Shown: positions 3,578-64,000 of the stretch, piece by piece
Layout: each line of letters opens with the position of its first letter
How positions within the stretch are numbered: position 1 is the first letter of the stretch
Source: a virus
DNA length: 64,000 nt
Strand: one strand, 5' to 3'
IMG/VR virus record: IMGVR_UViG_3300036765_000035
Made by a program: the position numbers and the translations under genes
The notes under the pieces: generated by a model
Database searches by the model: none
Seen by the model: only the letters and a program-made list of their open reading frames with translations
Told to the model about the DNA's origin: nothing

Positions 3578-6208
3578 TTAATATTCCACTAATTCATCAA
3601 ATAATAAAGTTTTAAATGTTGGCATTATTTCACCAATTGCACCCAATATTGATTTAACTGTATTTTCAATCAATCTTTGTGTTTGTGCTTCTTTATCAAT
3701 TAAGATATAAAAATGTTCCATAAACCATGTTGGAAACTCATTCATGTCTGTTGGAACTGCTATACTTTTAAATATACCTATTGGTTTTTTTAAGTAATAA
3801 ACTTTTATTTTTGAACCCGACATTATACTATAACTTTCAAGGTCATTATACTTCTCTAAACAATAATTGTAAAGTATACTTGCACGAACATGTCCCGGAA
3901 TCTTATTCAATTCTTCTCCATTTTCATATTTTTCAGTATATTCTTCAACTTTATTAACACCTTTAGGTAAACCAATATCAATTAAAGTTGTTTTTTCTTT
4001 AATTGTATATCTATATTCAACTAATTCATAACTTATATCTTTCCAACTTCTTCCTGTTAACAAATCACGCATCAATCTAATTAAATTTTCTTTAATCATT
4101 TTTGGTACAGTTGTTCGTTTTAATGGAAGTCCCATTATTTTCATTTCATCAACATCATATCCATCCTTTTTAATCAAATGTAAAATATAATGTTTTTTCT
4201 TAACAAAAATTCCTTTGTCAGCTAATATTTCTTGTTCTGCAAATATTTTCTTAGAAAAATCACTATAACAAAAAAATGTTTCTTCCATAAATGAAGGAAA
4301 TGATTTATTTACTTTTTTCTCAACATATTTTCCAACAGAATATGCTTTTTCCATATCTTCACAATGTGTTTTAAAATAACAACTATCAGTGTCTGAATAT
4401 ATTGTGGAATCCGATGGATAAATATATTCACCGTCTAATATATTAGCAACCTTTCTAACCATGTGCATTAATATTTCTCTTCCACTTCTTGTAGTTGATT
4501 CTGCTAATCTAATATCAAAGAATTTAAACCATTTGTTACCAAGTGCACCATACATTGAATTAAGTTGGATTTTTTTGATATATTGTACACGATGATAATA
4601 ATTTGCTTCTATCTTTAATTTTTTTATTTTATCATTATTTATTTTCTCCATTTCAGGAGTTTTTGATAGTTCTTTTATTTTATCTTTAGTTACTGTTTTC
4701 TTTGCTTGATATTCTTTTCTACTTTTATACCATTCTGTTAAAATAGAAGGTATTATTCCTATAATGTCTGTTCGAAATACTGTACCATAACCACTTAATG
4801 TATATTTATTCTGTTTAAAAAAGTCACTCCATTCTTCAGCAGTTCTTTCATCAACATCACCATTTTCATAGAAAAAAGTTAATATTGTTTTAGTTTTATT
4901 TTTTATATTTTCATATGCTTTTTCTTTTTCAATAAACTGTCCAACAATAGTCTCAGGACTGATATTCAAAGAAATTATTACGTTAGGATACAATGAACCA
5001 ATGTCAATTGCACTTATACCAGAATGCATTCCTATTTGTGGTGGTAGAACTAATGCACCTGTAAATTTTTCATATATATCATTAAATACTGGTTTATCTT
5101 TAATGACATTAGTTGTGGTTTCATGTGAATAATTAATTACTGCTTGTTCAGCTAATTTAATTGTCCCCAATACATCATTTATTTGTCCACCTGTCATATG
5201 TGCCATATCAATGGCAACTTGCATGTATCCTAATACATCTTCAAACCCTTTAAGAACCTCTGTATCTCTCTTGTTATATCTTAAAAAGTGAAAAAAATCA
5301 TTATTGTATAATTCATGTAATGTTCCATTATATGTTAATTTTTGTAAATCAGGTAAAACATATTCAGAAATAGCTTCCAATGTATAACTTGGTTTTTCAT
5401 CCATTTCAAAATTTTTATAAAGTAACATATAGTCTATGTTAATTCGACCTTTTAATACTAAAAGTTTTTGTACATTTTTAAACTTTTCGTGTTTTACTTC
5501 CTTATAATAAGGATTTCCTGCACCTTCAAACGATAATTTATTTGCATATTTTTTTCCCAAAACTTTTAATAATCTTTCATACATATATGGAGTATCATAA
5601 AAATCAGAGTTCCAACCAGAAATTATGTCAGAATTTTCGATTTCTTTCAAAAATCTTAATAATAAATCCGATTCTTTTTTGAATAAATAAATTTCAACAG
5701 ATTCTTTAATATCTTCAGGAATGTCATCAATCGTAATGTTTTTAAATTTCTTTGATGGTATTGCTAATATAACCATTCTTTGGCTATATTCATGATACAT
5801 TGCAATAGCATTAACAGGTGCATATGCATTCTTTGGTTTTGCATATCCAATTTTAGGGTCATAATCTGTTTCTATATCATATAATGTGAAATTTAATTTA
5901 TTTGTGCTTTTTTTATTAAAATATTTGTTTGATAATGTTTTATATTCTAATGGTATATCAGATTCATAAATATCTTTTCCTTTTTCAATTAACATGTTTC
6001 TAGCATCTCTCATCTGAGAGTAACTATTAAATTCTAATTTTGAAACATTATTACCATATAAATCTTTTTTATCACCATATTCATCATTTTGATAATAAAA
6101 GTAATATTCAGGGGAATGTCTTTTAAGTATTCTTTCTCCTTTTTTATTTCTTTCCCAGACAAGAACATTTTTCTTGTCTGGGGACATTACTGATGAGATG
6201 TAAGACAT
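3578..6208 (-). CDS. 43: Family B DNA polymerase (T4 gp43-like) with a 3'-5' exonuclease domain
   Basis: Exo I motif LYDIETDYDP, polymerase motif C IYSDTDSCYF (YxDTDS), K..NSMYGALG motif B-like block. Length 876 aa. Confidence 0.9.
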   Translation of the reverse strand: MSYISSVMSPDKKNVLVWERNKKGERILKRHSPEYYFYYQNDEYGDKKDLYGNNVSKLEFNSYSQMRDARNMLIEKGKDIYESDIPLEYKTLSNKYFNKKSTNKLNFTLYDIETDYDPKIGYAKPKNAYAPVNAIAMYHEYSQRMVILAIPSKKFKNITIDDIPEDIKESVEIYLFKKESDLLLRFLKEIENSDIISGWNSDFYDTPYMYERLLKVLGKKYANKLSFEGAGNPYYKEVKHEKFKNVQKLLVLKGRINIDYMLLYKNFEMDEKPSYTLEAISEYVLPDLQKLTYNGTLHELYNNDFFHFLRYNKRDTEVLKGFEDVLGYMQVAIDMAHMTGGQINDVLGTIKLAEQAVINYSHETTTNVIKDKPVFNDIYEKFTGALVLPPQIGMHSGISAIDIGSLYPNVIISLNISPETIVGQFIEKEKAYENIKNKTKTILTFFYENGDVDERTAEEWSDFFKQNKYTLSGYGTVFRTDIIGIIPSILTEWYKSRKEYQAKKTVTKDKIKELSKTPEMEKINNDKIKKLKIEANYYHRVQYIKKIQLNSMYGALGNKWFKFFDIRLAESTTRSGREILMHMVRKVANILDGEYIYPSDSTIYSDTDSCYFKTHCEDMEKAYSVGKYVEKKVNKSFPSFMEETFFCYSDFSKKIFAEQEILADKGIFVKKKHYILHLIKKDGYDVDEMKIMGLPLKRTTVPKMIKENLIRLMRDLLTGRSWKDISYELVEYRYTIKEKTTLIDIGLPKGVNKVEEYTEKYENGEELNKIPGHVRASILYNYCLEKYNDLESYSIMSGSKIKVYYLKKPIGIFKSIAVPTDMNEFPTWFMEHFYILIDKEAQTQRLIENTVKSILGAIGEIMPTFKTLLFDELVEY

Positions 6209-51752: not shown

Positions 51753-53618
51753 ATGGAAAAATGGAAAACACTTCAACCTACAACGTCAGATATTTCTGAC
51801 GTTTCTTTTTTAGTTAAGGAATATAAAGATAAAAAAACTTCAAATATTCGAATTAAATATCCACAAGAATATGTGAATTTAATCAATATAACAAGTTTTT
51901 TACCTAATAATGCATCCACAACAAATAGATTATGGCATATTGAACATAATGTATTAGAAACAATTAAATGTGAAAAATGTAAAATAAATGATGTTAAATG
52001 GTATCCATCAAAAGGTGGATATGGTGAATATTGTTCAGTAAAATGTTCGAGTAATTCAAATGATACAAAAAATAAAATAAAAGAAACCAATTTAAAAAAG
52101 TATGGTGAAACATCATATACAAAAACAAAAAAACATAAAAAATTTTTAAAGTCTGATGAATTTAAAAATATAATGAATTCAAGAGAAGTTATAAACAAAA
52201 GAAAGAAAACTAATCTTGATAGATATGGAGTAGAAGAAATATTCCAATCTAATGAAATACAAGAAAAAATTAAAGAAACAAATGAAACAAGATATGGTGT
52301 TGACAACCCTATTAAATCGGATGAAATAAAAGATAAAATAAAAAGAACAAATTTAGAAAAATATGGAACTGAAACTCCATTTCAAAACAGTGAAATAAGA
52401 GATAAAGCTAAAGAAACACTTTATTCAGAATATGGTGTTGAATATGGGTTGCAAGCAAAAGAAATATTAGATAAAACAAAACAAAAATATTACGAAAGAA
52501 CAGGATATTCAACCCCATTTAACAATCCAATAGTTAAAGAAAAAATCAAAGAAATTTTTAAGAAAAAATATGGTGTACACCCAACACTCAAACAGTTTTC
52601 AGATAGAACAATCCAACGAATAAATGATGCAGAATGGTTGAAAGAAAAACACCATACTGAACAAAAAACATTGACAGAAATTTCTTTAAAATATCTTGAA
52701 GGATATGATATATCATCATTGTCAAATAGAATGAAACAATTTGGAATTGAAATAAATTCAAAATTGGTTTCCTTTGCAGAAAAACAATTAAGAGAATATA
52801 TAATATCTTTAGGTATCGATATTGTAACCAATGATAGAAAAACTATATCACCAATGGAATTAGATATATACATTCCAAGTTATAATATTGCAATTGAGTA
52901 TTGTGGAATATATTGGCATTCAGAATTATATAAAGATAAAAAATATCATAAAAATAAATACGAAAAGTGTAAAACACAAGGAATCAGATTAATAACCATT
53001 TTTGAGAATGAATGGATATACAAAAAAGATATTGTAAAAAATAAAATAAAGCATATTTTAGGGAAAACAATAACAAAAATATTTGCAAGAAAATGTAAAA
53101 TACGAGAACCAAGAAAAAAGGATGTTATTGAATTTATAAACAATAATCATATACAAGGATTTAAAGCATCAACAAATTACATTTCATTATATTATGATAA
53201 CAAGATGGTTTCATGTATGTGTTTAACAAAAATAAAAGAAGGATTATACAATATCGATAGGTTTGCATCAAATACAACTGTTATAGGTGGATTTAGTAAA
53301 TTATTAAAATATTTTATAAAAAATAATTTTGATAAGATTGATAAAATTGAAACTTTTTCTGATAATAGATGGGATAATGGTAATGTTTATTTAATAAATG
53401 GATTTAAACATGATAAAGAACTAGCAGAAGATTACTCATATGTTGTTAAAGATAAAACATATCATAAATCAAATTATAGAAAAAAGAATTTAAAAAATAA
53501 ATTACATTACTATGATTCAAATTTGACAGAACATCAAAATTGTTTTAATAATAAAATATATAGAATATATGATTGTGGGAAAGTTAAATTTACTTTAGAT
53601 ATAAAAAAAGAGGAATAA
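51753..53618 (+). CDS. Free-standing homing endonuclease-like protein, a paralog of 12844..14397. N-terminal Cys cluster, six roughly 30-aa K.K.TN..KYG... repeats, then a Vsr-like PD-(D/E)xK nuclease domain.
   Basis: ELDIYIPSYNIAIEYCGIYWHSELYKDK ... GIRLITIFENEW parallels the other copy and the Vsr signature. The shared C-terminal block ends KIYRIYDCGKVKF (compare KIYDCGNMVWSY). Confidence 0.6.
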   Translation: MEKWKTLQPTTSDISDVSFLVKEYKDKKTSNIRIKYPQEYVNLINITSFLPNNASTTNRLWHIEHNVLETIKCEKCKINDVKWYPSKGGYGEYCSVKCSSNSNDTKNKIKETNLKKYGETSYTKTKKHKKFLKSDEFKNIMNSREVINKRKKTNLDRYGVEEIFQSNEIQEKIKETNETRYGVDNPIKSDEIKDKIKRTNLEKYGTETPFQNSEIRDKAKETLYSEYGVEYGLQAKEILDKTKQKYYERTGYSTPFNNPIVKEKIKEIFKKKYGVHPTLKQFSDRTIQRINDAEWLKEKHHTEQKTLTEISLKYLEGYDISSLSNRMKQFGIEINSKLVSFAEKQLREYIISLGIDIVTNDRKTISPMELDIYIPSYNIAIEYCGIYWHSELYKDKKYHKNKYEKCKTQGIRLITIFENEWIYKKDIVKNKIKHILGKTITKIFARKCKIREPRKKDVIEFINNNHIQGFKASTNYISLYYDNKMVSCMCLTKIKEGLYNIDRFASNTTVIGGFSKLLKYFIKNNFDKIDKIETFSDNRWDNGNVYLINGFKHDKELAEDYSYVVKDKTYHKSNYRKKNLKNKLHYYDSNLTEHQNCFNNKIYRIYDCGKVKFTLDIKKEE

Positions 53619-54876: not shown

Positions 54877-55425
54877 ATGTATTATGCAGGTATAGGCTCT
54901 AGAAAAATACCAAAAGTTATAAAAGATTTAATGGTAGTCATTGGATATGCAATGGCAGAAAACGGTTACGTCTTACGTTCTGGTGGTGCAGAAGGTGCAG
55001 ATACAGCATTTCAAAAAGGTTGTCAACAATGGTGTGATGACAACAATGTGCCATATTGTAAAAGACAAGAAATATATTTACCTTGGAATAATTTTAACAA
55101 TTTAAAAGTTGATAAGCATAAAGGAATAACAACAGAAACATTTTGGTTAGCACATGATTTGGTTTATGAAACTCACCCTAATGCAAAAAATTTATCACCA
55201 TCAGTAATGAAATTAATGGTAAGAAATGTTGCACAAATTTATGGCTTAAACAATACCCCATCTGATTTGATAATATGCTGGACACCTGATGGTGCAACAA
55301 AAACAACCACAAATGAAACAGGTGGAACAGGACAAGCATTAAGATTGGCATTAATAGATAACATTCCAATAATAAATTTAAAATTAAAAAAACACATAAA
55401 ATTGATTGAAAAAATATTAATATAA
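54877..55425 (+). CDS. DprA/Smf-like Rossmann-fold (SLOG superfamily) protein
   Basis: GIGSRKIPKVIKDLMVVIGYAMAENGYVLRSGGAEGADTAFQKG follows the DprA pattern (GSR......A..LA..G..VVSGLA.GID.AAH.GA). Confidence 0.45.
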   Translation: MYYAGIGSRKIPKVIKDLMVVIGYAMAENGYVLRSGGAEGADTAFQKGCQQWCDDNNVPYCKRQEIYLPWNNFNNLKVDKHKGITTETFWLAHDLVYETHPNAKNLSPSVMKLMVRNVAQIYGLNNTPSDLIICWTPDGATKTTTNETGGTGQALRLALIDNIPIINLKLKKHIKLIEKILI

Positions 55426-55433
55426 ATTAAAAC

Positions 55434-55462
55434 TTGTAAAAAAATTTTTTAAATGATATAAT
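55434..55462 (+). promoter_or_regulatory. Sigma70-like promoter (TTGTAA, 17 nt, TATAAT) upstream of the SPFH gene
   Basis: TTGTAAaaaaattttttaaatgaTATAAT, then the RBS AGGAG, then ATG at 55495. Confidence 0.5.
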
Positions 55463-55494
55463 TTTCTAACTTATTAATACTTAGGAGTAAAAAA

Positions 55495-56217
55495 ATGAAT
55501 CATTTAATTGGTATGGGAATATTTTTATTTATATATGCAGTTGCATATATTTTGTTTTTAAAAAATCATAGACAATATAATATAATTGCATTGCCATTAG
55601 TAATGGCATTAATTGTGTCATTGGGTTTTAGTGGAGCAACATTCTATGCAGAACCCGGTTTTATATATCATGTACGAACAATTACAGGAACTGAAAAAGT
55701 AATCAGTGATGTAGGGTATAATTTCCATTGGTTTGGGAGATATAACTCATGGAAAAGAGCGATGACTGTACAATCAACAGACATTGGAAATAATAATGAT
55801 ACTGATAAATTGACAGCAGAAAATACTGATTCAACTGTATTGTCAGCCATGTTACGTCCACAAAAAATAGTATTTCTTGACCAAGTTGATGCATTGATTC
55901 AATCATCTGTTAGGTTCAAAATTCCTTCAGAAGAAGAAGCTTTTTTAAGATTGGTACATGAATACAGAACACCAGATAATCTATTAAGGGCAACTTTAAT
56001 TCCAGCATTTAGAGAAACATTACAGGCAACAGCATCTTTAATGACAGCAGAAGAATATTATTCTGGTGGAAGAACAGAGTTTAGTAATGAATTTGAAACA
56101 CAGATGAATGATGGAATTTATATTGTTAAAAGGATTGAAAAAATCGAAAAAAATGTTGTAACATCAACAAGTTCCGCAAATGCATCGAAGGGTTGTAACT
56201 GTTTCATATTAATATGA
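55495..56217 (+). pseudogene. 5' portion of an SPFH/band-7 (stomatin/flotillin/HflK-like) membrane-protein gene, interrupted by the IS607-like element. The last ~10-15 codons read into the insertion.
   Basis: N-terminal TM helices, then band-7 core blocks (VRFKIPSEEEAFLRLVHEYRTPDNLLRATLIPAFRETLQATASLMTAEEYYSGGR ... GIYIVKRIEKIE). The ORF ends a few codons after GIxV..V.I.xI, where SPFH proteins normally continue. Confidence 0.5.
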
Positions 56218-56267
56218 TAAATTTTATAGAAAATTATATTTAATTTGCAATTTATATAAATACAAGT

Positions 56268-56867
56268 ATGAATAAATTAATATCTTTACAAAAAACAAGT
56301 GAAATATTGTGTCTTTCTAAATGGGGAGTCCGAAGAACACCAGAATCAATATTGCCAGTTTATCGAACAGCAGGAGGACACAGAAGATATAAACTTCAAG
56401 ATGTACAAAAATTAATAGGAGAAGAAACTAAACTAATAAGTGATGACAATAATGTTGCCATTTATAGTAGAGTTTCTTCTCATGAACAAAAGAAATCAGG
56501 TGATTTATCACGTCAAAAAGACAGATTAATCAATTATTGCATTAATAAACAATATACAATTGTATCCAACCTCGAAGAGGTTGGTTCTGGTATGAATGAT
56601 AAAAGACCAAAACTGGTTAAATTAATTGATTTGGCATGTAAAGGTGAAATAAATAAAATAATAATTGAACACCGAGACAGATTAACCCGTTTTAATTTTA
56701 ATATTTTTAAATTATTTATGAAACACCATAATGTTACTATTGAGGTTATTAAAGAATCAGAAAAAATATCTTTTGAAGAAGAATTAGTATCAGATATAAT
56801 TTCATTGATGACATCATTTTCTGGAAAAATTCATGGGAAGAGAAGCCATAAAAATGTTAATAAATAA
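56268..56867 (+). CDS. tnpA: IS607-type transposase TnpA: MerR-like HTH fused to a serine recombinase (resolvase) catalytic domain
   Basis: HTH region SEILCLSKWGVRRTPE ... YRTAGGHRRY. Catalytic-serine motif AIYSRVSSHEQK. 199 aa, overlapping tnpB by 35 nt. Confidence 0.75.
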   Translation: MNKLISLQKTSEILCLSKWGVRRTPESILPVYRTAGGHRRYKLQDVQKLIGEETKLISDDNNVAIYSRVSSHEQKKSGDLSRQKDRLINYCINKQYTIVSNLEEVGSGMNDKRPKLVKLIDLACKGEINKIIIEHRDRLTRFNFNIFKLFMKHHNVTIEVIKESEKISFEEELVSDIISLMTSFSGKIHGKRSHKNVNK

Positions 56868-58074
56868 AACATACAAAACAGAAATCAAACCAAATAATAA
56901 ACAGAAAACATTTCTTATGCAAAGTTGTGGTGTTTCGAGATTGGCTTATAATTGGGGATTGGATTTAATAAAAAATGATTATGAGCAAGGAGAAAAATAC
57001 AAAGGAGCGATTGGACTTCATAAAGCACTCTGTGCTATTAAAAAAGCACAATTTCCGTTTATGTATGATGTTAGTAAACAAGCACCCCAAAATTCACTCC
57101 GTGACTTAGATAAAGCAATGAAAAATTTTTGGAGAGGAATAAAAAATAAAAAACATATAGGGTTTCCTAAATTTAAATCAAAAAAATATTCCAAAAATTC
57201 ATTTCGTATTGATGGAGCAAATATTGATGTCACTGATAATTTTGTTAAATTACCAAAAATTGAAAAAATAAGACTGAAAGAAAGAAATTATATTCCAACT
57301 GAAAACATAAAAGTGCTGAATTGTACAATATCAAAAGAAATAAACCGATGGTTTATTTCTGTGTCAGTACAAGAAGAAATATTTAATGATAATATTCCAG
57401 AAGAAATTATTGGAATTGATTTAGGAATCAAAGATTTGGCTACTTGCTCCAATGGATTGATATTTAATAATCCAAAATATACAAATAAGTATGCTAAACA
57501 ACTAAAGTTTGCTCAACGAGAACTTAGTAGAAAAATAAAAGGTTCTAAAAACCGAGATAAACAACGCATTAAAGTTGCTAAAATACATAAGAAAATTAGA
57601 AATTCCCGAAAAGACACAATTAATAAAATGACCTCTAATATCACGAAAACCAAGTGCAGAATTATTGGAATTGAAAATCTGTGTGTATCAGGAATGACTA
57701 AGAACCATAAATTAGCAAAGGCAGTCACAGATGCCAGTTTTTTTGAAATAAGACGACAACTAGAATATAAAAGTGAATGGAATGGTGGCAGAATTTGTTT
57801 AGTTGACAGGTTTTTCCCTTCTTCCAAAACTTGTAGTTGTTGTGGATTAATCAAAGAAATGCCATTAAATGAACGGGTTTATTCATGCGATTGTGGATTT
57901 GTGATGGACAGAGACCTTAATGCGTCTATTAATTTAGAAACATATACCGCAAGTTCTGCGGAATTTAATGCTTATGGAGAGAACATAAGACTCGCTTCTA
58001 GTGAACTAGAAAAAAGCAATCTCTGTGAAGTAAGAAATAAACTTGAATTTGAATATATTGCTCAAATTCTGTAA
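56833..58074 (+). CDS. tnpB: TnpB (OrfB_IS605 / Cas12 ancestor, RNA-guided endonuclease family), apparently intact
   Basis: RuvC-I IGIDLGIKDLATCS (D), RuvC-II IIGIENLCVSG (E), zinc finger CSCCG...CDCG, RuvC-III DRDLNASINL (D). 413 aa. Confidence 0.85.
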   Translation: MGREAIKMLINKTYKTEIKPNNKQKTFLMQSCGVSRLAYNWGLDLIKNDYEQGEKYKGAIGLHKALCAIKKAQFPFMYDVSKQAPQNSLRDLDKAMKNFWRGIKNKKHIGFPKFKSKKYSKNSFRIDGANIDVTDNFVKLPKIEKIRLKERNYIPTENIKVLNCTISKEINRWFISVSVQEEIFNDNIPEEIIGIDLGIKDLATCSNGLIFNNPKYTNKYAKQLKFAQRELSRKIKGSKNRDKQRIKVAKIHKKIRNSRKDTINKMTSNITKTKCRIIGIENLCVSGMTKNHKLAKAVTDASFFEIRRQLEYKSEWNGGRICLVDRFFPSSKTCSCCGLIKEMPLNERVYSCDCGFVMDRDLNASINLETYTASSAEFNAYGENIRLASSELEKSNLCEVRNKLEFEYIAQIL

Positions 58075-58579
58075 GTTTTATAGAACGGAAGAACAAGAAC
58101 TATTAGCAAATGCAAAAGGAAAAAGACAAGTTGCTGAAAGACAGGCACAAGCAAAAGTTGAACAAATTGAACGTACAACTAAAGCAGAAACCGAAAAACA
58201 ATTAGCAATTACAGAAGCTTTAAAAATTAAAGAAAAAGCAACAATTGAACAAGAAGCAGCTAAGATTCAACTAGAAAGAGACAAACTAGTTGCTCAATCC
58301 CAAAAAGTTCTTGCAGATGCTGAAGCGTATAAAAGAAATGCAATTATTAAATCAGATAATGCGTTACAACAAAAACTTGAAGCTGAAATAAAAATTCAAA
58401 AGGTTTGGGCAGATGCATTTGCTCAACGTAAAGTTCCTCAAACAATGTTTATAACAGGAAGTTCAGGTGAATCAGGTCATGTTGGTTCAAACAATGAGTT
58501 GCAAAATATGATGCAAATGATGACACTTCAAATGGCAAAAAATCTTGATAACGATAGAAAAGTTGTAAAAGATAAGTAA
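58043..58579 (+). pseudogene. 3' portion of the same SPFH/band-7 gene (C-terminal coiled-coil/flotillin-like region), downstream of the IS607-like element. The frame opens at 58034 inside the end of tnpB.
   Basis: AKGKRQVAERQAQAKVEQIERTTKAETEKQLAITEALKIKEKATIEQEAAKIQLERDKL is a band-7 C-terminal helical repeat. The ORF has no ATG and begins within the IS. Confidence 0.5.
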
Positions 58580-58630
58580 CATTATAAAAAAACAGATATA
58601 AATAATATGATATTAAACAATAATGGATAA

Positions 58631-58876
58631 ATGATGGACAGTGATTATATATTTTCTATTAAAATAGTATTTGTTGATAATACAGAATTGGAAATTGAAA
58701 TTTCACGTAGAGCAAGTACTTATCAAATTGCAACTACAAAGATAAAAATGGAAATAGAAAAAATGGCAATGGAAGGATTTTATGAAAACTATAAAGACGG
58801 TAATATCTATACATTTCATTCCCCTTTTTCAATAAAAACAATTGAGGTAATAAAATGTTATGAAAAAAAATATTAA
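58631..58876 (+). CDS. Small hypothetical early protein
   Basis: 81-aa ORF in a same-strand array of small genes. Confidence 0.35.
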   Translation: MMDSDYIFSIKIVFVDNTELEIEISRRASTYQIATTKIKMEIEKMAMEGFYENYKDGNIYTFHSPFSIKTIEVIKCYEKKY

Positions 58877-59234
58877 TTTCACAATTGAAGAAATAGAATC
58901 AAAAAAGAAAGAAATTTTTAAAAGTCCAAAATATTGGTTATATAGAAATAAAATAAAACTGTTTAATACTGTTGAAAATATTGCAACTCTTGGATTTTTT
59001 TATGGGGTTGCAGTAACATTTTCACTCAATCATATGAATTTAATTGTTCTGGCAAATATTATAAAAGATGAATTAGATTTAATTGACGATAAAAATGATT
59101 GTCATAGAGAGTATAATATTTTAGTAAAAAACATTTTATCAAAATCGTTTTTGATGATAGATGAAGAAAATAATTTATATAATATTGAAAAACTGTTAAC
59201 AATATTATTGACATTAGAGAAAATAAACAAATGA
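58860..59234 (+). CDS. Small hypothetical early protein
   Basis: 124-aa ORF. Confidence 0.35.
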   Translation: MKKNINFTIEEIESKKKEIFKSPKYWLYRNKIKLFNTVENIATLGFFYGVAVTFSLNHMNLIVLANIIKDELDLIDDKNDCHREYNILVKNILSKSFLMIDEENNLYNIEKLLTILLTLEKINK

Positions 59235-59986
59235 AAAGAGAATTACATCATTTACAATTACTGGCAGGAATACAAAATGAAATAGGTAATACAATAAAAG
59301 ATAAAGTCCTATTTGATGATATTAAAGTTTATAAAAAGGATTGTGAGTATAAGATATTTTTACAATATCACAATTTTTTATTAAAAACAATTAAAGATGT
59401 TTTAAATCTTAAAGGACTATTTTCAAATAATACACGTGATAAATTAAATGTAAAGGATATAGAATTAGATTTGTTTTCAACATGTTATAGAATTGAAGTT
59501 TTTCTTGATGACATTAAAAAAGGAAAAAATAAATTTTATGAACATATTCTAGAAAAAACATCTACTAGGACACCCAATGTAAATAAAATTACGTTAAAAA
59601 CAAATAAAGAGAAAGAAACAAATACATTATCATTAAAAGATATAGTTGATGCTAATTTAGATATATTTGGAAATAATAACATAATTCCAGATTTTAATTC
59701 TTATATGTTTAATCCATATAATAAGAATATATATGAAACATTTTTATCAGATTTAAAAAATGGGTTAATAAATAAAATGGAATATGTTGAAAATGTTGTT
59801 GGAGATAATAAAAATAATAAAATACTTTCTTATTCTGACAAGAAAATTAAAGAAATTGATAAAATGTTTAAAAATGTAAATGATGGAAATTTTACATCAT
59901 CAGTAAAAGATTTAAAAGATTGCATTGTCAGCGTTTATAATAAATATATAACTTTTGAAAAAAAATATAATGAAGAAAAATCTTAA
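59231..59986 (+). CDS. Hypothetical protein
   Basis: 251-aa ORF coupled to its neighbours. Confidence 0.4.
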   Translation: MKRELHHLQLLAGIQNEIGNTIKDKVLFDDIKVYKKDCEYKIFLQYHNFLLKTIKDVLNLKGLFSNNTRDKLNVKDIELDLFSTCYRIEVFLDDIKKGKNKFYEHILEKTSTRTPNVNKITLKTNKEKETNTLSLKDIVDANLDIFGNNNIIPDFNSYMFNPYNKNIYETFLSDLKNGLINKMEYVENVVGDNKNNKILSYSDKKIKEIDKMFKNVNDGNFTSSVKDLKDCIVSVYNKYITFEKKYNEEKS

Positions 59987-63700: not shown

Positions 63701-63843
63701 TAAAATAGTGAAATGTTGTGTGATTGTGGAGGTAGGGTTACCCCACGTAAATAACAGAAATACCCAAACAGATGAGTTATGGCAGTAAGAGTGCTCCATG
63801 TAAATAACAAAAATCTCTAAACAGAAATGACATTTCACTATTT
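63701..63843. repeat. 143-bp element bounded by a perfect 14-bp inverted repeat (AAAATAGTGAAATG / CATTTCACTATTTT) and containing two roughly 30-bp direct repeats (CCAyGTAAATAACArAAAT.C..AAACAGA)
   Basis: Inverted and direct repeats read directly from the sequence, immediately 3' of tRNA-Asn. Confidence 0.6.
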
Positions 63844-64000
63844 TATTAATGAAATTGAAATATGAGAAAATGAAATACAATGGTATTTAATTAATACCTA
63901 TATTATATAGAAAAATAACGAATAAATCAAGAATTATTTCTTTTTTCCTTTTAACATAAATATTATAATGATAAAATCAGAACGACACATAATAAAAAGA

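What the first reader, a model, noticed from the sequence alone, without database searches (positions are those of the whole stretch)
57900..58100. Predicted omega-RNA / right-end region of the TnpB element overlapping the tnpB stop and the resumption of the SPFH reading frame
In characterised TnpB systems the guide RNA scaffold is transcribed from the 3' end of tnpB plus the right end. The guide itself is the first about 16-20 nt of flanking DNA, here the SPFH C-fragment beginning around 58080. This locus is where a reprogrammable guide would sit.
Basis: inference. Interest (0 to 1): 0.55.

Follow-up and report, generated by a model that had tools for sequence, protein, structure and literature searches.

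The report
Guide-RNA scaffold of a phage IS607 TnpB
The flagged stretch is the conserved, folded guide-RNA scaffold of a mobile IS607 element's RNA-guided nuclease (TnpB) sitting in a large phage genome; it is a clean example of an already known system, not a new one.

Summary
The prediction holds. Window 57944-58088 (+) is a structured RNA element. It overlaps the last 131 nt of tnpB and ends exactly at the right end of a 1,897-bp IS607 element (…GAAC|GG).

A covariance model built without this window or its close relatives finds it as the only hit in 64 kb (110 bits, E 5e-26). About 236 of 254 related tnpB loci carry the same element at the same place. All 24 base pairs show compensatory changes. 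A pseudoknot between the 5' hairpin loop (GUUC) and the 3' tail (GAAC) also covaries.

The central domain (57971-58036) is a below-threshold match to Rfam RAGATH-18. That motif is the experimentally validated core of IS607 TnpB guide RNAs (ISFba1, PDB 8IAZ).

A 100% identical copy of the element sits at a second site with a different 3' flank. This fixes the boundaries and shows that each insertion acquires a new guide (here 58089 onward, AAGAACAAGAAC…).

Left flanks of 14 independent insertions end in RGG (here GAAGG). The right end is always ACGG, as in the published self/non-self rule.

Expression, TnpB binding and cleavage are untested.

Side finding: about 79 codons of the SPFH gene are missing at the insertion.

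The parts
55495..56191 (+). SPFH/Band_7 gene, N-terminal fragment up to the left core GG
   Evidence: Pfam Band_7 matches residues 62-206, profile positions 12-128 of 176 only. It is 76% identical to residues 1-236 of the intact homolog P0121.
56187..56191 (+). Left-flank TAM-like motif GAAGG (core GG at 56190-56191)
   Evidence: Sequence. In 14 independent insertions of this clade, position -3 is A (10) or G (4) and never C or T; positions -2 and -1 are GG.
56192..58088 (+). IS607-family element, 1,897 bp counted with one copy of the GG core
   Evidence: Logan contig L001 equals window 56189-58090. An identical copy lies in another context in L261/L263. Homology with L165 ends at 58089.
56268..56867 (+). 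tnpA, serine recombinase
   Evidence: Pfam Resolvase. NCBIfam transpos_IS607 scores 178 bits against a cut-off of 110.
56854..58074 (+). tnpB, RNA-guided nuclease (the ORF could also start at 56833)
   Evidence: Pfam HTH_OrfB_IS605, OrfB_IS605 and Cas12f1-like_TNB. NCBIfam guided_TnpB scores 294 bits against a cut-off of 100. D196, E281, D361 and the four zinc-finger Cys are invariant columns in A1. E 1.5e-55 to ISFba1 TnpB 8IAZ and about 1e-58 to ISDra2 TnpB.
57944..58088 (+). Omega-RNA (reRNA) scaffold core
   Evidence: R1 scores 114.8 bits. Held-out R2 scores 110.4 bits, E 5e-26, the only hit in the window.
57945..57963 (+). P1 hairpin: 57947-57951 pairs with 57957-57961, plus the extra pair 57945-57963; loop AGUUC at 57952-57956
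   Evidence: All five pairs covary, 97.9% paired. The extra pair (columns 2-58) has MI 1.14.
57971..58036 (+). RAGATH-18-like domain. P2 is 57971-57975 with 58030-58034. P3 is 57979-57982 with 58020-58023. The conserved internal loop is UGGAG...UGAAG, and the apical part is variable.
   Evidence: Rfam RF03064 matches model positions 1-71 at 25.4 bits, below the gathering score of 44.9. P2 and P3 covary.
58037..58081 (+). P4 (58037-58041 with 58077-58081) and P5 (58045-58051 with 58063-58069) stem-loop
   Evidence: P4 is 96.2% paired with all pairs covarying. P5 is 79.4% paired. The window pairing is read.
58083..58086 (+). 3' arm (GAAC) of the pseudoknot with the P1 loop GUUC (57953-57956); the last two bases, GG at 58087-58088, are the recombination core
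   Evidence: 98.1% paired. The fourth pair is C-G 58, U-G 15, A-U 9, G-C 6, U-A 2. It corresponds to PK2 of the ISFba1 reRNA.
58089..58108 (+). Predicted guide (AAGAACAAGAACUAUUAGCA; the usable length of about 16-20 nt is inferred)
   Evidence: Conservation stops at 58088 in all relatives. The identical element in L261 is followed by AAATGTACTTAC... instead. The 16-mer has no other exact match in the window.
58088..58579 (+). SPFH gene, C-terminal fragment
   Evidence: 81% identical to residues 316-472 of P0121. The frame is restored across the GG joint.

Best explanation
Window 57944-58088 encodes the scaffold of the guide RNA (omega-RNA or reRNA) of the TnpB nuclease carried by a 1,897-bp IS607 element.

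The scaffold overlaps the 3' end of tnpB and runs to the last base of the right end. It has three parts:
- a 5' hairpin (P1);
- a RAGATH-18-like central domain (P2/P3, with a conserved UGGAG...UGAAG internal loop);
- a 3' stem-loop (P4/P5), then the tail AGAACGG.

The GAAC of the tail forms a pseudoknot with the P1 loop.

Transcription continues into the flanking DNA, so the 16-20 nt after the GG (58089 onward) would become the guide.

Inferred mechanism, from published IS607 and IS605 work:
- TnpA excises the element at the two GG cores. This leaves a donor joint GAAGG|AAGAACAAGAAC....
- TnpB with this RNA would recognise the RGG TAM plus the guide match in that joint, or in an IS-free allele of a co-infecting phage.
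- TnpB would cut, and recombinational repair from an IS-bearing copy would restore or spread the element.
- The element's own right end (ACGG, with C at -3) would be spared.

Shown here: conservation, structure, boundaries, mobility, a variable guide position and the flank motif. Inferred: RNA expression and processing, TnpB binding, the exact TAM, and cleavage.
For: - **Held-out detection.** Model R2 finds 57944-58088 as the only hit in the window, 110 bits, E 5e-26.
- **Presence across relatives.** The same element sits at the 3' end of tnpB, on the same strand, in about 236 of 254 loci from bacteria, archaea and viruses.
- **Covariation.** 23 of 24 pairs are compensatory on a MAFFT alignment. 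On the model alignment 93.5% of cells pair, against 67% when shuffled and at most 52% when slid, and 24 of 24 pairs have double changes. A mutual-information scan ranks the model's pairs at the top.
- **Pseudoknot.** It covaries and matches PK2 of the ISFba1 reRNA seen by cryo-EM.
- **RAGATH-18.** It matches the window at 25.4 bits. It passes its threshold inside R1 hits in phage c-st ISCbt4 and phage Romulus. RAGATH-18-derived RNAs guide IS607 TnpBs (PMC11061315).
- **RNA rather than protein constraint.** The tnpB stop falls anywhere from before the RNA to its last quarter, and never beyond it.
- **Boundaries and mobility.** Conservation ends exactly at ...AACGG in independent element pairs. 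An identical copy exists at a second site with a different 3' flank.
- **Intact nuclease.** The TnpB catalytic D/E/D and zinc-finger residues are present.
- **Flank motif.** Left flanks end in RGG in 14 of 14 insertions, while C at -3 of the right end is invariant. This parallels TGGG versus TCGG in the C. botulinum IS607 element (10.1101/2023.11.20.567912).
Against: - There are no transcript or protein-binding data.
- No sigma-70-like promoter lies just upstream of the RNA. The RNA would have to be processed from the tnpB transcript or use an unrecognised promoter.
- The window copy scores below Rfam's RAGATH-18 gathering threshold (25.4 against 44.9) and was missed in the wider Rfam scan.
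- The published TAMs of RAGATH-18-type TnpBs are AGGAG or GAGGG, not simply RGG, so the TAM proposed here is only a flank statistic from 14 sites.
- The 5' end of the RNA is not defined.
- The last roughly 20 bp must also serve as the TnpA recombination site, so part of the conservation there may act at the DNA level.
Confidence: 0.9

Rival explanations
1. The conservation reflects only the C-terminal tail of the TnpB protein. The region is coding sequence with no RNA role.
For: 131 of the 145 nt lie inside the tnpB ORF. The translated tail (TxSSxEfxAyGExxRL) looks conserved in A1. It even aligns with the tail of ISDra2 TnpB.
Against: - Conservation continues 14 nt past the stop, to the exact end of the element.
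- In 15 of 119 relatives the stop lies before the element, and in 27 more it lies within the first three quarters.
- Changes are pairwise compensatory rather than synonymous.
- In phages c-st and Romulus the same RNA lies wholly downstream of the ORF.
Confidence: 0.02
2. The region is only the right-end DNA site bound by the TnpA serine recombinase. Any apparent structure is incidental.
For: It ends at the GG crossover core. The terminal GTTxTA/TAxAAC motif forms a short imperfect inverted repeat with the left end. Some right-end DNA must be bound by TnpA.
Against: - Serine recombinases act on double-stranded DNA and impose no base-pair covariation over 145 nt.
- Only 97 of 265 loci have a tnpA within the flanks, yet about 236 of 254 keep the element next to tnpB.
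- The central domain matches an RNA family shown to be bound by IS607 TnpB.
Confidence: 0.04
3. The RNA is a genuine omega-RNA relic, but this copy no longer works as a homing system. It could be decaying, or acting only as a regulator in the manner of the nuclease-dead TldR proteins.
For: The flanks are not contiguous in the ancestral SPFH gene. No empty-site allele was found among proteins at 90% identity or more.
Against: - Both ORFs are intact and the catalytic residues are present.
- Every model pair is a standard pair in the window copy except the basal P5 pair (U58044-U58070), which the single-sequence fold replaces with a shifted 7-bp helix.
- Two 100% identical copies at different sites indicate very recent transposition.
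- The donor joint that TnpA would create still has an RGG followed by the guide match.
Confidence: 0.04

Closest known systems
RAGATH-18-derived reRNA of IS607 TnpB (ISFba1; PDB 8IAZ; Cell Res 2024, PMC11061315; Rfam RF03064)
   Same: - Three-part layout: a 5' hairpin, a central domain with CCUGUGGAG...UGAAGCAGGAA, and a 3' stem-loop region followed by the guide.
- A pseudoknot between the 5' hairpin loop and the bases just before the 3' end (PK2 in ISFba1).
- An IS607 TnpB partner, E 1.5e-55 to 8IAZ.
- My model R1 covers threshold-passing RAGATH-18 loci.
   Different: - The window copy scores 25.4 bits against the gathering score of 44.9.
- Here the scaffold overlaps the last 131 nt of the ORF, whereas the ISFba1 reRNA is described as wholly outside the coding sequence.
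- The flank motif here is (W)RGG, not AGGAG or GAGGG.
- The core is about 145 nt, against a 187-nt scaffold in ISFba1.
Omega-RNA of the Clostridium botulinum IS607 IStron TnpB (10.1101/2023.11.20.567912)
   Same: - A serine-recombinase TnpA with a GG core dinucleotide.
- A scaffold that ends in ...CGG at the right end, with the guide starting immediately after.
- The TAM equals the left-flank target motif and differs from the right end at position -3 (TGGG versus TCGG there; RGG versus ACGG here).
   Different: No group I intron is present here (Rfam scan of 55000-59500). Position -3 is more often A than G. Nothing has been tested biochemically.
ISDra2 (IS200/IS605) TnpB omega-RNA (PDB 8EXA, 8H1J)
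   Same: The RNA overlaps the 3' end of tnpB and ends at the right end, with the guide drawn from flanking DNA. TnpB similarity is E about 1e-58, and the match extends into the RNA-encoded tail.
   Different: ISDra2 uses a Y1 (HUH) TnpA with single-stranded 'peel and paste' transposition and a TTGAT TAM. The element here is IS607, with a serine recombinase and a GG core.

Membership tests
IS607-family insertion sequence | TnpA is a small serine recombinase of the IS607 type | tested here: met
   NCBIfam NF033518 transpos_IS607 scores 178.1 bits against a cut-off of 110. Pfam Resolvase also matches.
IS607-family insertion sequence | tnpB lies directly downstream of, and overlaps, tnpA on the same strand | tested here: met
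   tnpA is at 56268-56867 and tnpB at 56833/56854-58074.
IS607-family insertion sequence | The same core dinucleotide (GG) at both junctions and no target-site duplication beyond it | tested here: met
   ...GAA[GG]GTTG... and ...GAAC[GG]AAG.... The same holds in 14 insertions.
IS607-family insertion sequence | Mobility: the same element at different sites | tested here: met
   1,902 bp are 100% identical in L261/L263 with unrelated flanks. The Logan contig L001 ends at the element boundaries.
TnpB RNA-guided nuclease | RuvC D-E-D catalytic triad and a CxxC...CxC zinc finger | tested here: met
   D196, E281, D361, C334, C337, C352 and C354 are invariant columns of A1 and are present in the window protein.
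TnpB RNA-guided nuclease | RNA-guided, TAM-dependent DNA cleavage | not testable with these tools
   This needs plasmid-interference or in vitro cleavage assays.
IS607 TnpB omega-RNA / RAGATH-18-derived reRNA | Located at or overlapping the 3' end of tnpB, on the same strand, and ending at the right end | tested here: met
   57944-58088. The same position is found in about 236 of 254 loci.
IS607 TnpB omega-RNA / RAGATH-18-derived reRNA | Conserved secondary structure supported by covariation | tested here: met
IS607 TnpB omega-RNA / RAGATH-18-derived reRNA | Pseudoknot between the 5' hairpin loop and the 3' end of the scaffold | tested here: met
   GUUC at 57953-57956 pairs with GAAC at 58083-58086. 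It is 98.1% paired, with 17 compensatory cells at the fourth pair. Compare PK2 of ISFba1.
IS607 TnpB omega-RNA / RAGATH-18-derived reRNA | Match to Rfam RF03064 at or above the gathering score | tested here: not met
   25.4 bits against 44.9, with model positions 1-71 fully aligned. Relatives L264 and L265 pass at 64 bits. The window RNA is therefore a divergent relative, not a member by Rfam's threshold.
IS607 TnpB omega-RNA / RAGATH-18-derived reRNA | A variable guide immediately 3' of the scaffold, taken from flanking DNA | tested here: met
   Identical scaffolds are followed by AAGAACAAG... in the window and AAATGTACT... in L261. Flanks are unrelated across the clade.
IS607 TnpB omega-RNA / RAGATH-18-derived reRNA | The TAM equals the left-flank target motif and is distinguishable from the right end | tested here: inconclusive
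   The flank statistic fits: RGG in 14 of 14 insertions against an invariant ACGG. No cleavage-based TAM is available.
IS607 TnpB omega-RNA / RAGATH-18-derived reRNA | A stable RNA that is expressed and bound by TnpB | not testable with these tools
   This needs small-RNA or RIP sequencing.
IStron (group I intron fused to IS607) | Group I intron domains flanking the element | tested here: not met
   No intron family was found in 55000-59500 at E up to 10.

The most novel reading that the evidence does not exclude
In this large phage the TnpB and omega-RNA may act as an RNA-guided homing or marker-exclusion nuclease against IS-free SPFH alleles of co-infecting relatives. The inferred wild-type site is GAGG|AAGAACAAG.... 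Repair from the IS-bearing genome would convert those alleles to IS-bearing ones and drag along the adjacent 79-codon deletion.

Related to this, the deletion lies between two RGG sites that coincide exactly with the two element ends. It may record an IS607-specific route to adjacent deletions, either two nearby insertions followed by recombination between the copies, or TnpA acting on a nearby pseudo-site.
Probability: 0.15. Interest if true: 0.55.

Novelty: new member of a known kind. Interest (0 to 1): 0.3.

Why it matters
It confirms that the stage-one inference can be trusted here. It also gives an exactly delimited, recently mobile IS607 tnpA-tnpB-omega-RNA unit in a phage genome: scaffold 57944-58088, guide from 58089, candidate TAM RGG.

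The comparative set adds three modest points:
- The RAGATH-18-type reRNA and the ORF-overlapping omega-RNAs of many bacterial, archaeal and viral TnpBs form one structural family. The current Rfam model misses part of it.
- The conserved 'ACGE/AYGE' tail of TnpB proteins is the translation of the RNA motif GCCUGUGGAG.
- The published rule that position -3 distinguishes self (right end) from non-self (TAM) holds across a much wider clade.

None of this changes current understanding of the system.

Tried and rejected
- **Single-sequence folding** of 57860-58088 gave z = -1.5, which is uninformative.
- **Rfam scan of 55000-59500** at E up to 10 found nothing relevant. RAGATH-18 appeared only when the search space was reduced or in relatives.
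- **Megablast-like search of phage records** found only weak tnpB coding similarity.
- **Exact-pattern scans of IMG/VR** for the right end and the left end of this element found nothing.
- **A left-end HMM** recovered only a few extra boundaries, because left ends are poorly conserved beyond about 12 nt. The TAM statistic therefore rests on 14 sites.
- **A sigma-70 promoter scan** gave fewer sites than shuffled sequence and none just upstream of the RNA.
- **IStron** was considered and rejected: there is no group I intron.
- **Protein-tail-only and TnpA-site-only explanations** were rejected (see rivals).
- **A simple clean insertion into SPFH** was rejected because about 79 conserved codons are missing.
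- **An empty-site or wild-type SPFH allele of the same phage** was not found among proteins at 90% identity or more.

Full report
**What is at the locus.** The window is AT-rich (27% GC) and looks like DNA of a large phage. Its only DNA matches are weak ones to uncultured huge phages and Lak phages. Between 56192 and 58088 lies an IS607-type element.
- tnpA (56268-56867) passes the NCBIfam IS607 transposase model at 178 bits, cut-off 110.
- tnpB is a full TnpB with HTH, OrfB_IS605 and zinc-ribbon domains. It occupies 56854-58074; an upstream ATG at 56833 is less likely, given the homolog N-termini in A1.
- The RuvC D196/E281/D361 and four zinc-finger cysteines of TnpB are intact.
- The element interrupts an SPFH/Band_7 gene.
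- The junctions are ...TCGAA[GG]|GTTGTAAC... on the left and ...TATAGAAC|[GG]AAGAACAAG... on the right. This is the pattern expected for a serine recombinase exchanging at a GG core (10.1101/2023.11.20.567912).

**Boundaries and mobility.** A 1,902-bp Logan contig is identical to window 56189-58090 and stops there. Looking up the exact TnpA protein found the same 1,902 bp, 100% identical, in a different context. In L261/L263, from JGI samples of the same series, the left flank is ...GTGCTAGG and the right flank is AAATGTACTTAC.... One L261 flank is 90% identical to window 63841-64000, so that copy sits in a related phage with a different arrangement. The element is therefore exactly delimited and recently mobile. 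The sequence that follows its right end changes with each insertion.

**The RNA element.** After the RuvC-III motif (DRDLNASINL, 57907-57936) the tnpB 'protein tail' stays conserved among homologs, although some homologs stop early.
- With window 57937-58088 as an nhmmer query, 36 other tnpB tails matched at E<1e-3. After iteration 202 of 232 matched, and 136 of them ran to the last model position...GAACGG.
- In independent pairs of related elements, DNA homology ends at that same base.
- A MAFFT alignment of 86 cores gave an RNAalifold structure of 24 pairs, 23 of them with compensatory changes.
- On the covariance-model alignment 93.5% of cells pair. The figure is 67% after shuffling (0 of 500 shuffles reach the observed value) and 39-52% when partners are slid by 1-3 columns. 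All 24 pairs show double changes.
- A mutual-information scan over all well-occupied columns ranks these pairs at the top. It adds one more P1 pair and the pseudoknot.
- The P1 loop GUUC pairs with GAAC just before the terminal GG. The combinations seen are GUUC/GAAC, GUUU/GAAC, GUUA/UAAC, GUUG/CAAC and GCUC/GAGC, and 98.1% of cells pair.
- The window copy keeps P2 and P4 through its own compensatory changes. P2 is CUUA/UAAG where the consensus is CCUG/CAGG. P4 is AUAAA/UUUAU where the consensus is CCAAA/UUUGG.

**Not circular.** Model R2 was built from 35 loci, without the window and its closest relatives (L165, L247, L248, L252, L254, L256, L258). It still finds 57944-58088 as the only hit in 64 kb, full length, at 110.4 bits and E 5e-26.

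**RNA rather than protein or recombinase site.**
- The tnpB stop codon lies before the element in 15 of 119 loci. It lies in the first three quarters in 27, in the last quarter in 77, and never beyond the element.
- Only 97 of 265 loci have a tnpA nearby, yet about 236 of 254 have the element attached to tnpB.

**Identity with a known family.**
- Restricting the Rfam search to 57900-58110 gives RAGATH-18 (RF03064) over model positions 1-71, at 57971-58036. The score is 25.4 bits, below the gathering score of 44.9. The signature CUUAUGGAG...UGUGAAGUAAGAA aligns to the consensus CCUGUGGAG...GAUGAAGCAGGAA.
- Relatives score 28-31 bits.
- In Clostridium phage c-st (ISCbt4) and Staphylococcus phage Romulus, RAGATH-18 passes its threshold at 64 bits, inside hits of my model R1. 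The window RNA and canonical RAGATH-18 RNAs are therefore one structural family.
- RAGATH-18-derived RNAs were shown to bind and guide IS607 TnpBs. The ISFba1 scaffold has a 5' flank, RAGATH-18 and a 3' flank. A pseudoknot (PK2) joins the 5' hairpin loop to the bases just before the 3' end (PMC11061315). This is the layout and the pseudoknot found here.
- The window TnpB matches the ISFba1 structure 8IAZ at E 1.5e-55.
- The main difference is placement. Here the scaffold overlaps the last 131 nt of the ORF. In ISFba1, c-st and Romulus it lies downstream of the stop.

**Guide and TAM.** By analogy with the C. botulinum IS607 TnpB, the scaffold ends at the GG and the guide starts at the next base. 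Here that gives a guide from 58089, AAGAACAAGAACUAUUAGCA. This sequence has no other exact match in the window.

For 14 independent insertions of this clade I could fix the left boundary. Their flanks end in GG, preceded by A (10) or G (4) at position -3 and mostly T or A at -4. The right end is invariantly ...ACGG. This mirrors the published TGGG (TAM) versus TCGG (self) discrimination at -3. The window's left flank is GAAGG. The TAM is a flank statistic, not a cleavage result. The published TAMs of RAGATH-18-type TnpBs are AGGAG or GAGGG.

**Mechanism (inferred).** TnpA excision would give the joint GAAGG|AAGAACAAG.... TnpB with its RNA would cut that joint, and recombination with an IS-bearing copy would restore the element. 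This is the 'restorative homing' described for IS605 and IS607. The same RNP could also cut IS-free alleles in co-infecting phages. No sigma-70-like promoter lies just upstream. The RNA is therefore probably processed from the tnpB transcript, as reported for ISDra2 (PMC10278001, abstract seen).

**Side finding.** Joining the two SPFH fragments across the GG keeps the frame but gives 395 aa. Homologs are about 450-475 aa. The closest intact homolog, P0121, aligns at residues 1-236 and 316-472. Its residues 237-315 (QQQDEYGD...AIAREERVQE) have no counterpart in the window, although they are conserved in other SPFH proteins. Both ends of this gap coincide with the element ends and with RGG sites: AAGG on the left, and an inferred GAG|GAA on the right. 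The insertion is thus associated with a deletion of about 237 bp. Its origin is open. Possibilities are two nearby insertions followed by recombination between the copies, or a TnpA-mediated event.

**Verdict.** This is a new, divergent member of a known kind of system. Interest is modest.

Noticed in passing
window 56190-56191 and 58087-58088 (SPFH fragments 55495-56191 and 58088-58579): The SPFH gene is not simply split. About 79 conserved codons are absent between the two flanks of the element; they correspond to residues 237-315 of homolog P0121 and include the end of the Band_7 domain. Both deletion ends coincide with the element ends and with RGG sites.
   Followed up: partly
L261 3422-5323 and L263 1-1902: A 100% identical copy of the 1,902-bp element lies at a second site, after a Mom-like ORF and before a 321-aa ORF. 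It has the flanks ...GTGCTAGG and AAATGTACTTAC.... Part of the L261 flank is 90% identical to window 63841-64000.
   Followed up: yes
L005, L166 and L167 at 1157-1288 and 5980-6144: There are extra hits of the omega-RNA model: 115.9 bits at GC 0.55, and 31 bits. They lie near the queried tnpB but are not attached to it. They could be remnants of other elements or orphan guide RNAs.
   Followed up: no
window 51753-53618 (+): A 621-aa ORF has DUF7487 and a weak REase_MTES_1575 match. Its DNA resembles the HNH/Hef-like homing endonuclease genes of Bacillus phages AR9 and PBS1. This is probably another selfish element a few kb from the IS.
   Followed up: no
L264 4281-4498 (Clostridium phage c-st): A HEARO RNA (the IscB-type omega-RNA, RF02033, 140 bits) lies about 1 kb downstream of the ISCbt4 tnpB and its RAGATH-18 RNA. 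Two different guide-RNA systems therefore sit side by side in that phage.
   Followed up: no
window 57969-57983, and the TnpB C-terminal tails in alignment A1: The peptide 'ACGE/AYGE', conserved near the C-terminus of many TnpB proteins including ISDra2, is the in-frame translation of the RAGATH-18 5' consensus GCCUGUGGAG. Its conservation reflects the RNA, not the protein.
   Followed up: partly
window 56833 versus 56854: The longest tnpB ORF starts at 56833 (413 aa). The identical database protein P0001 and the homolog N-termini start at the ATG at 56854 (406 aa, MLINKTYK...).
   Followed up: partly
L249, L255, L257, L258 and L005 (about 200-300 nt upstream of tnpA): Relatives of this element that are 2.1-2.2 kb long carry one extra small ORF (about 60-70 aa) between the left end and tnpA. 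The 1.9-kb window element lacks it.
   Followed up: no
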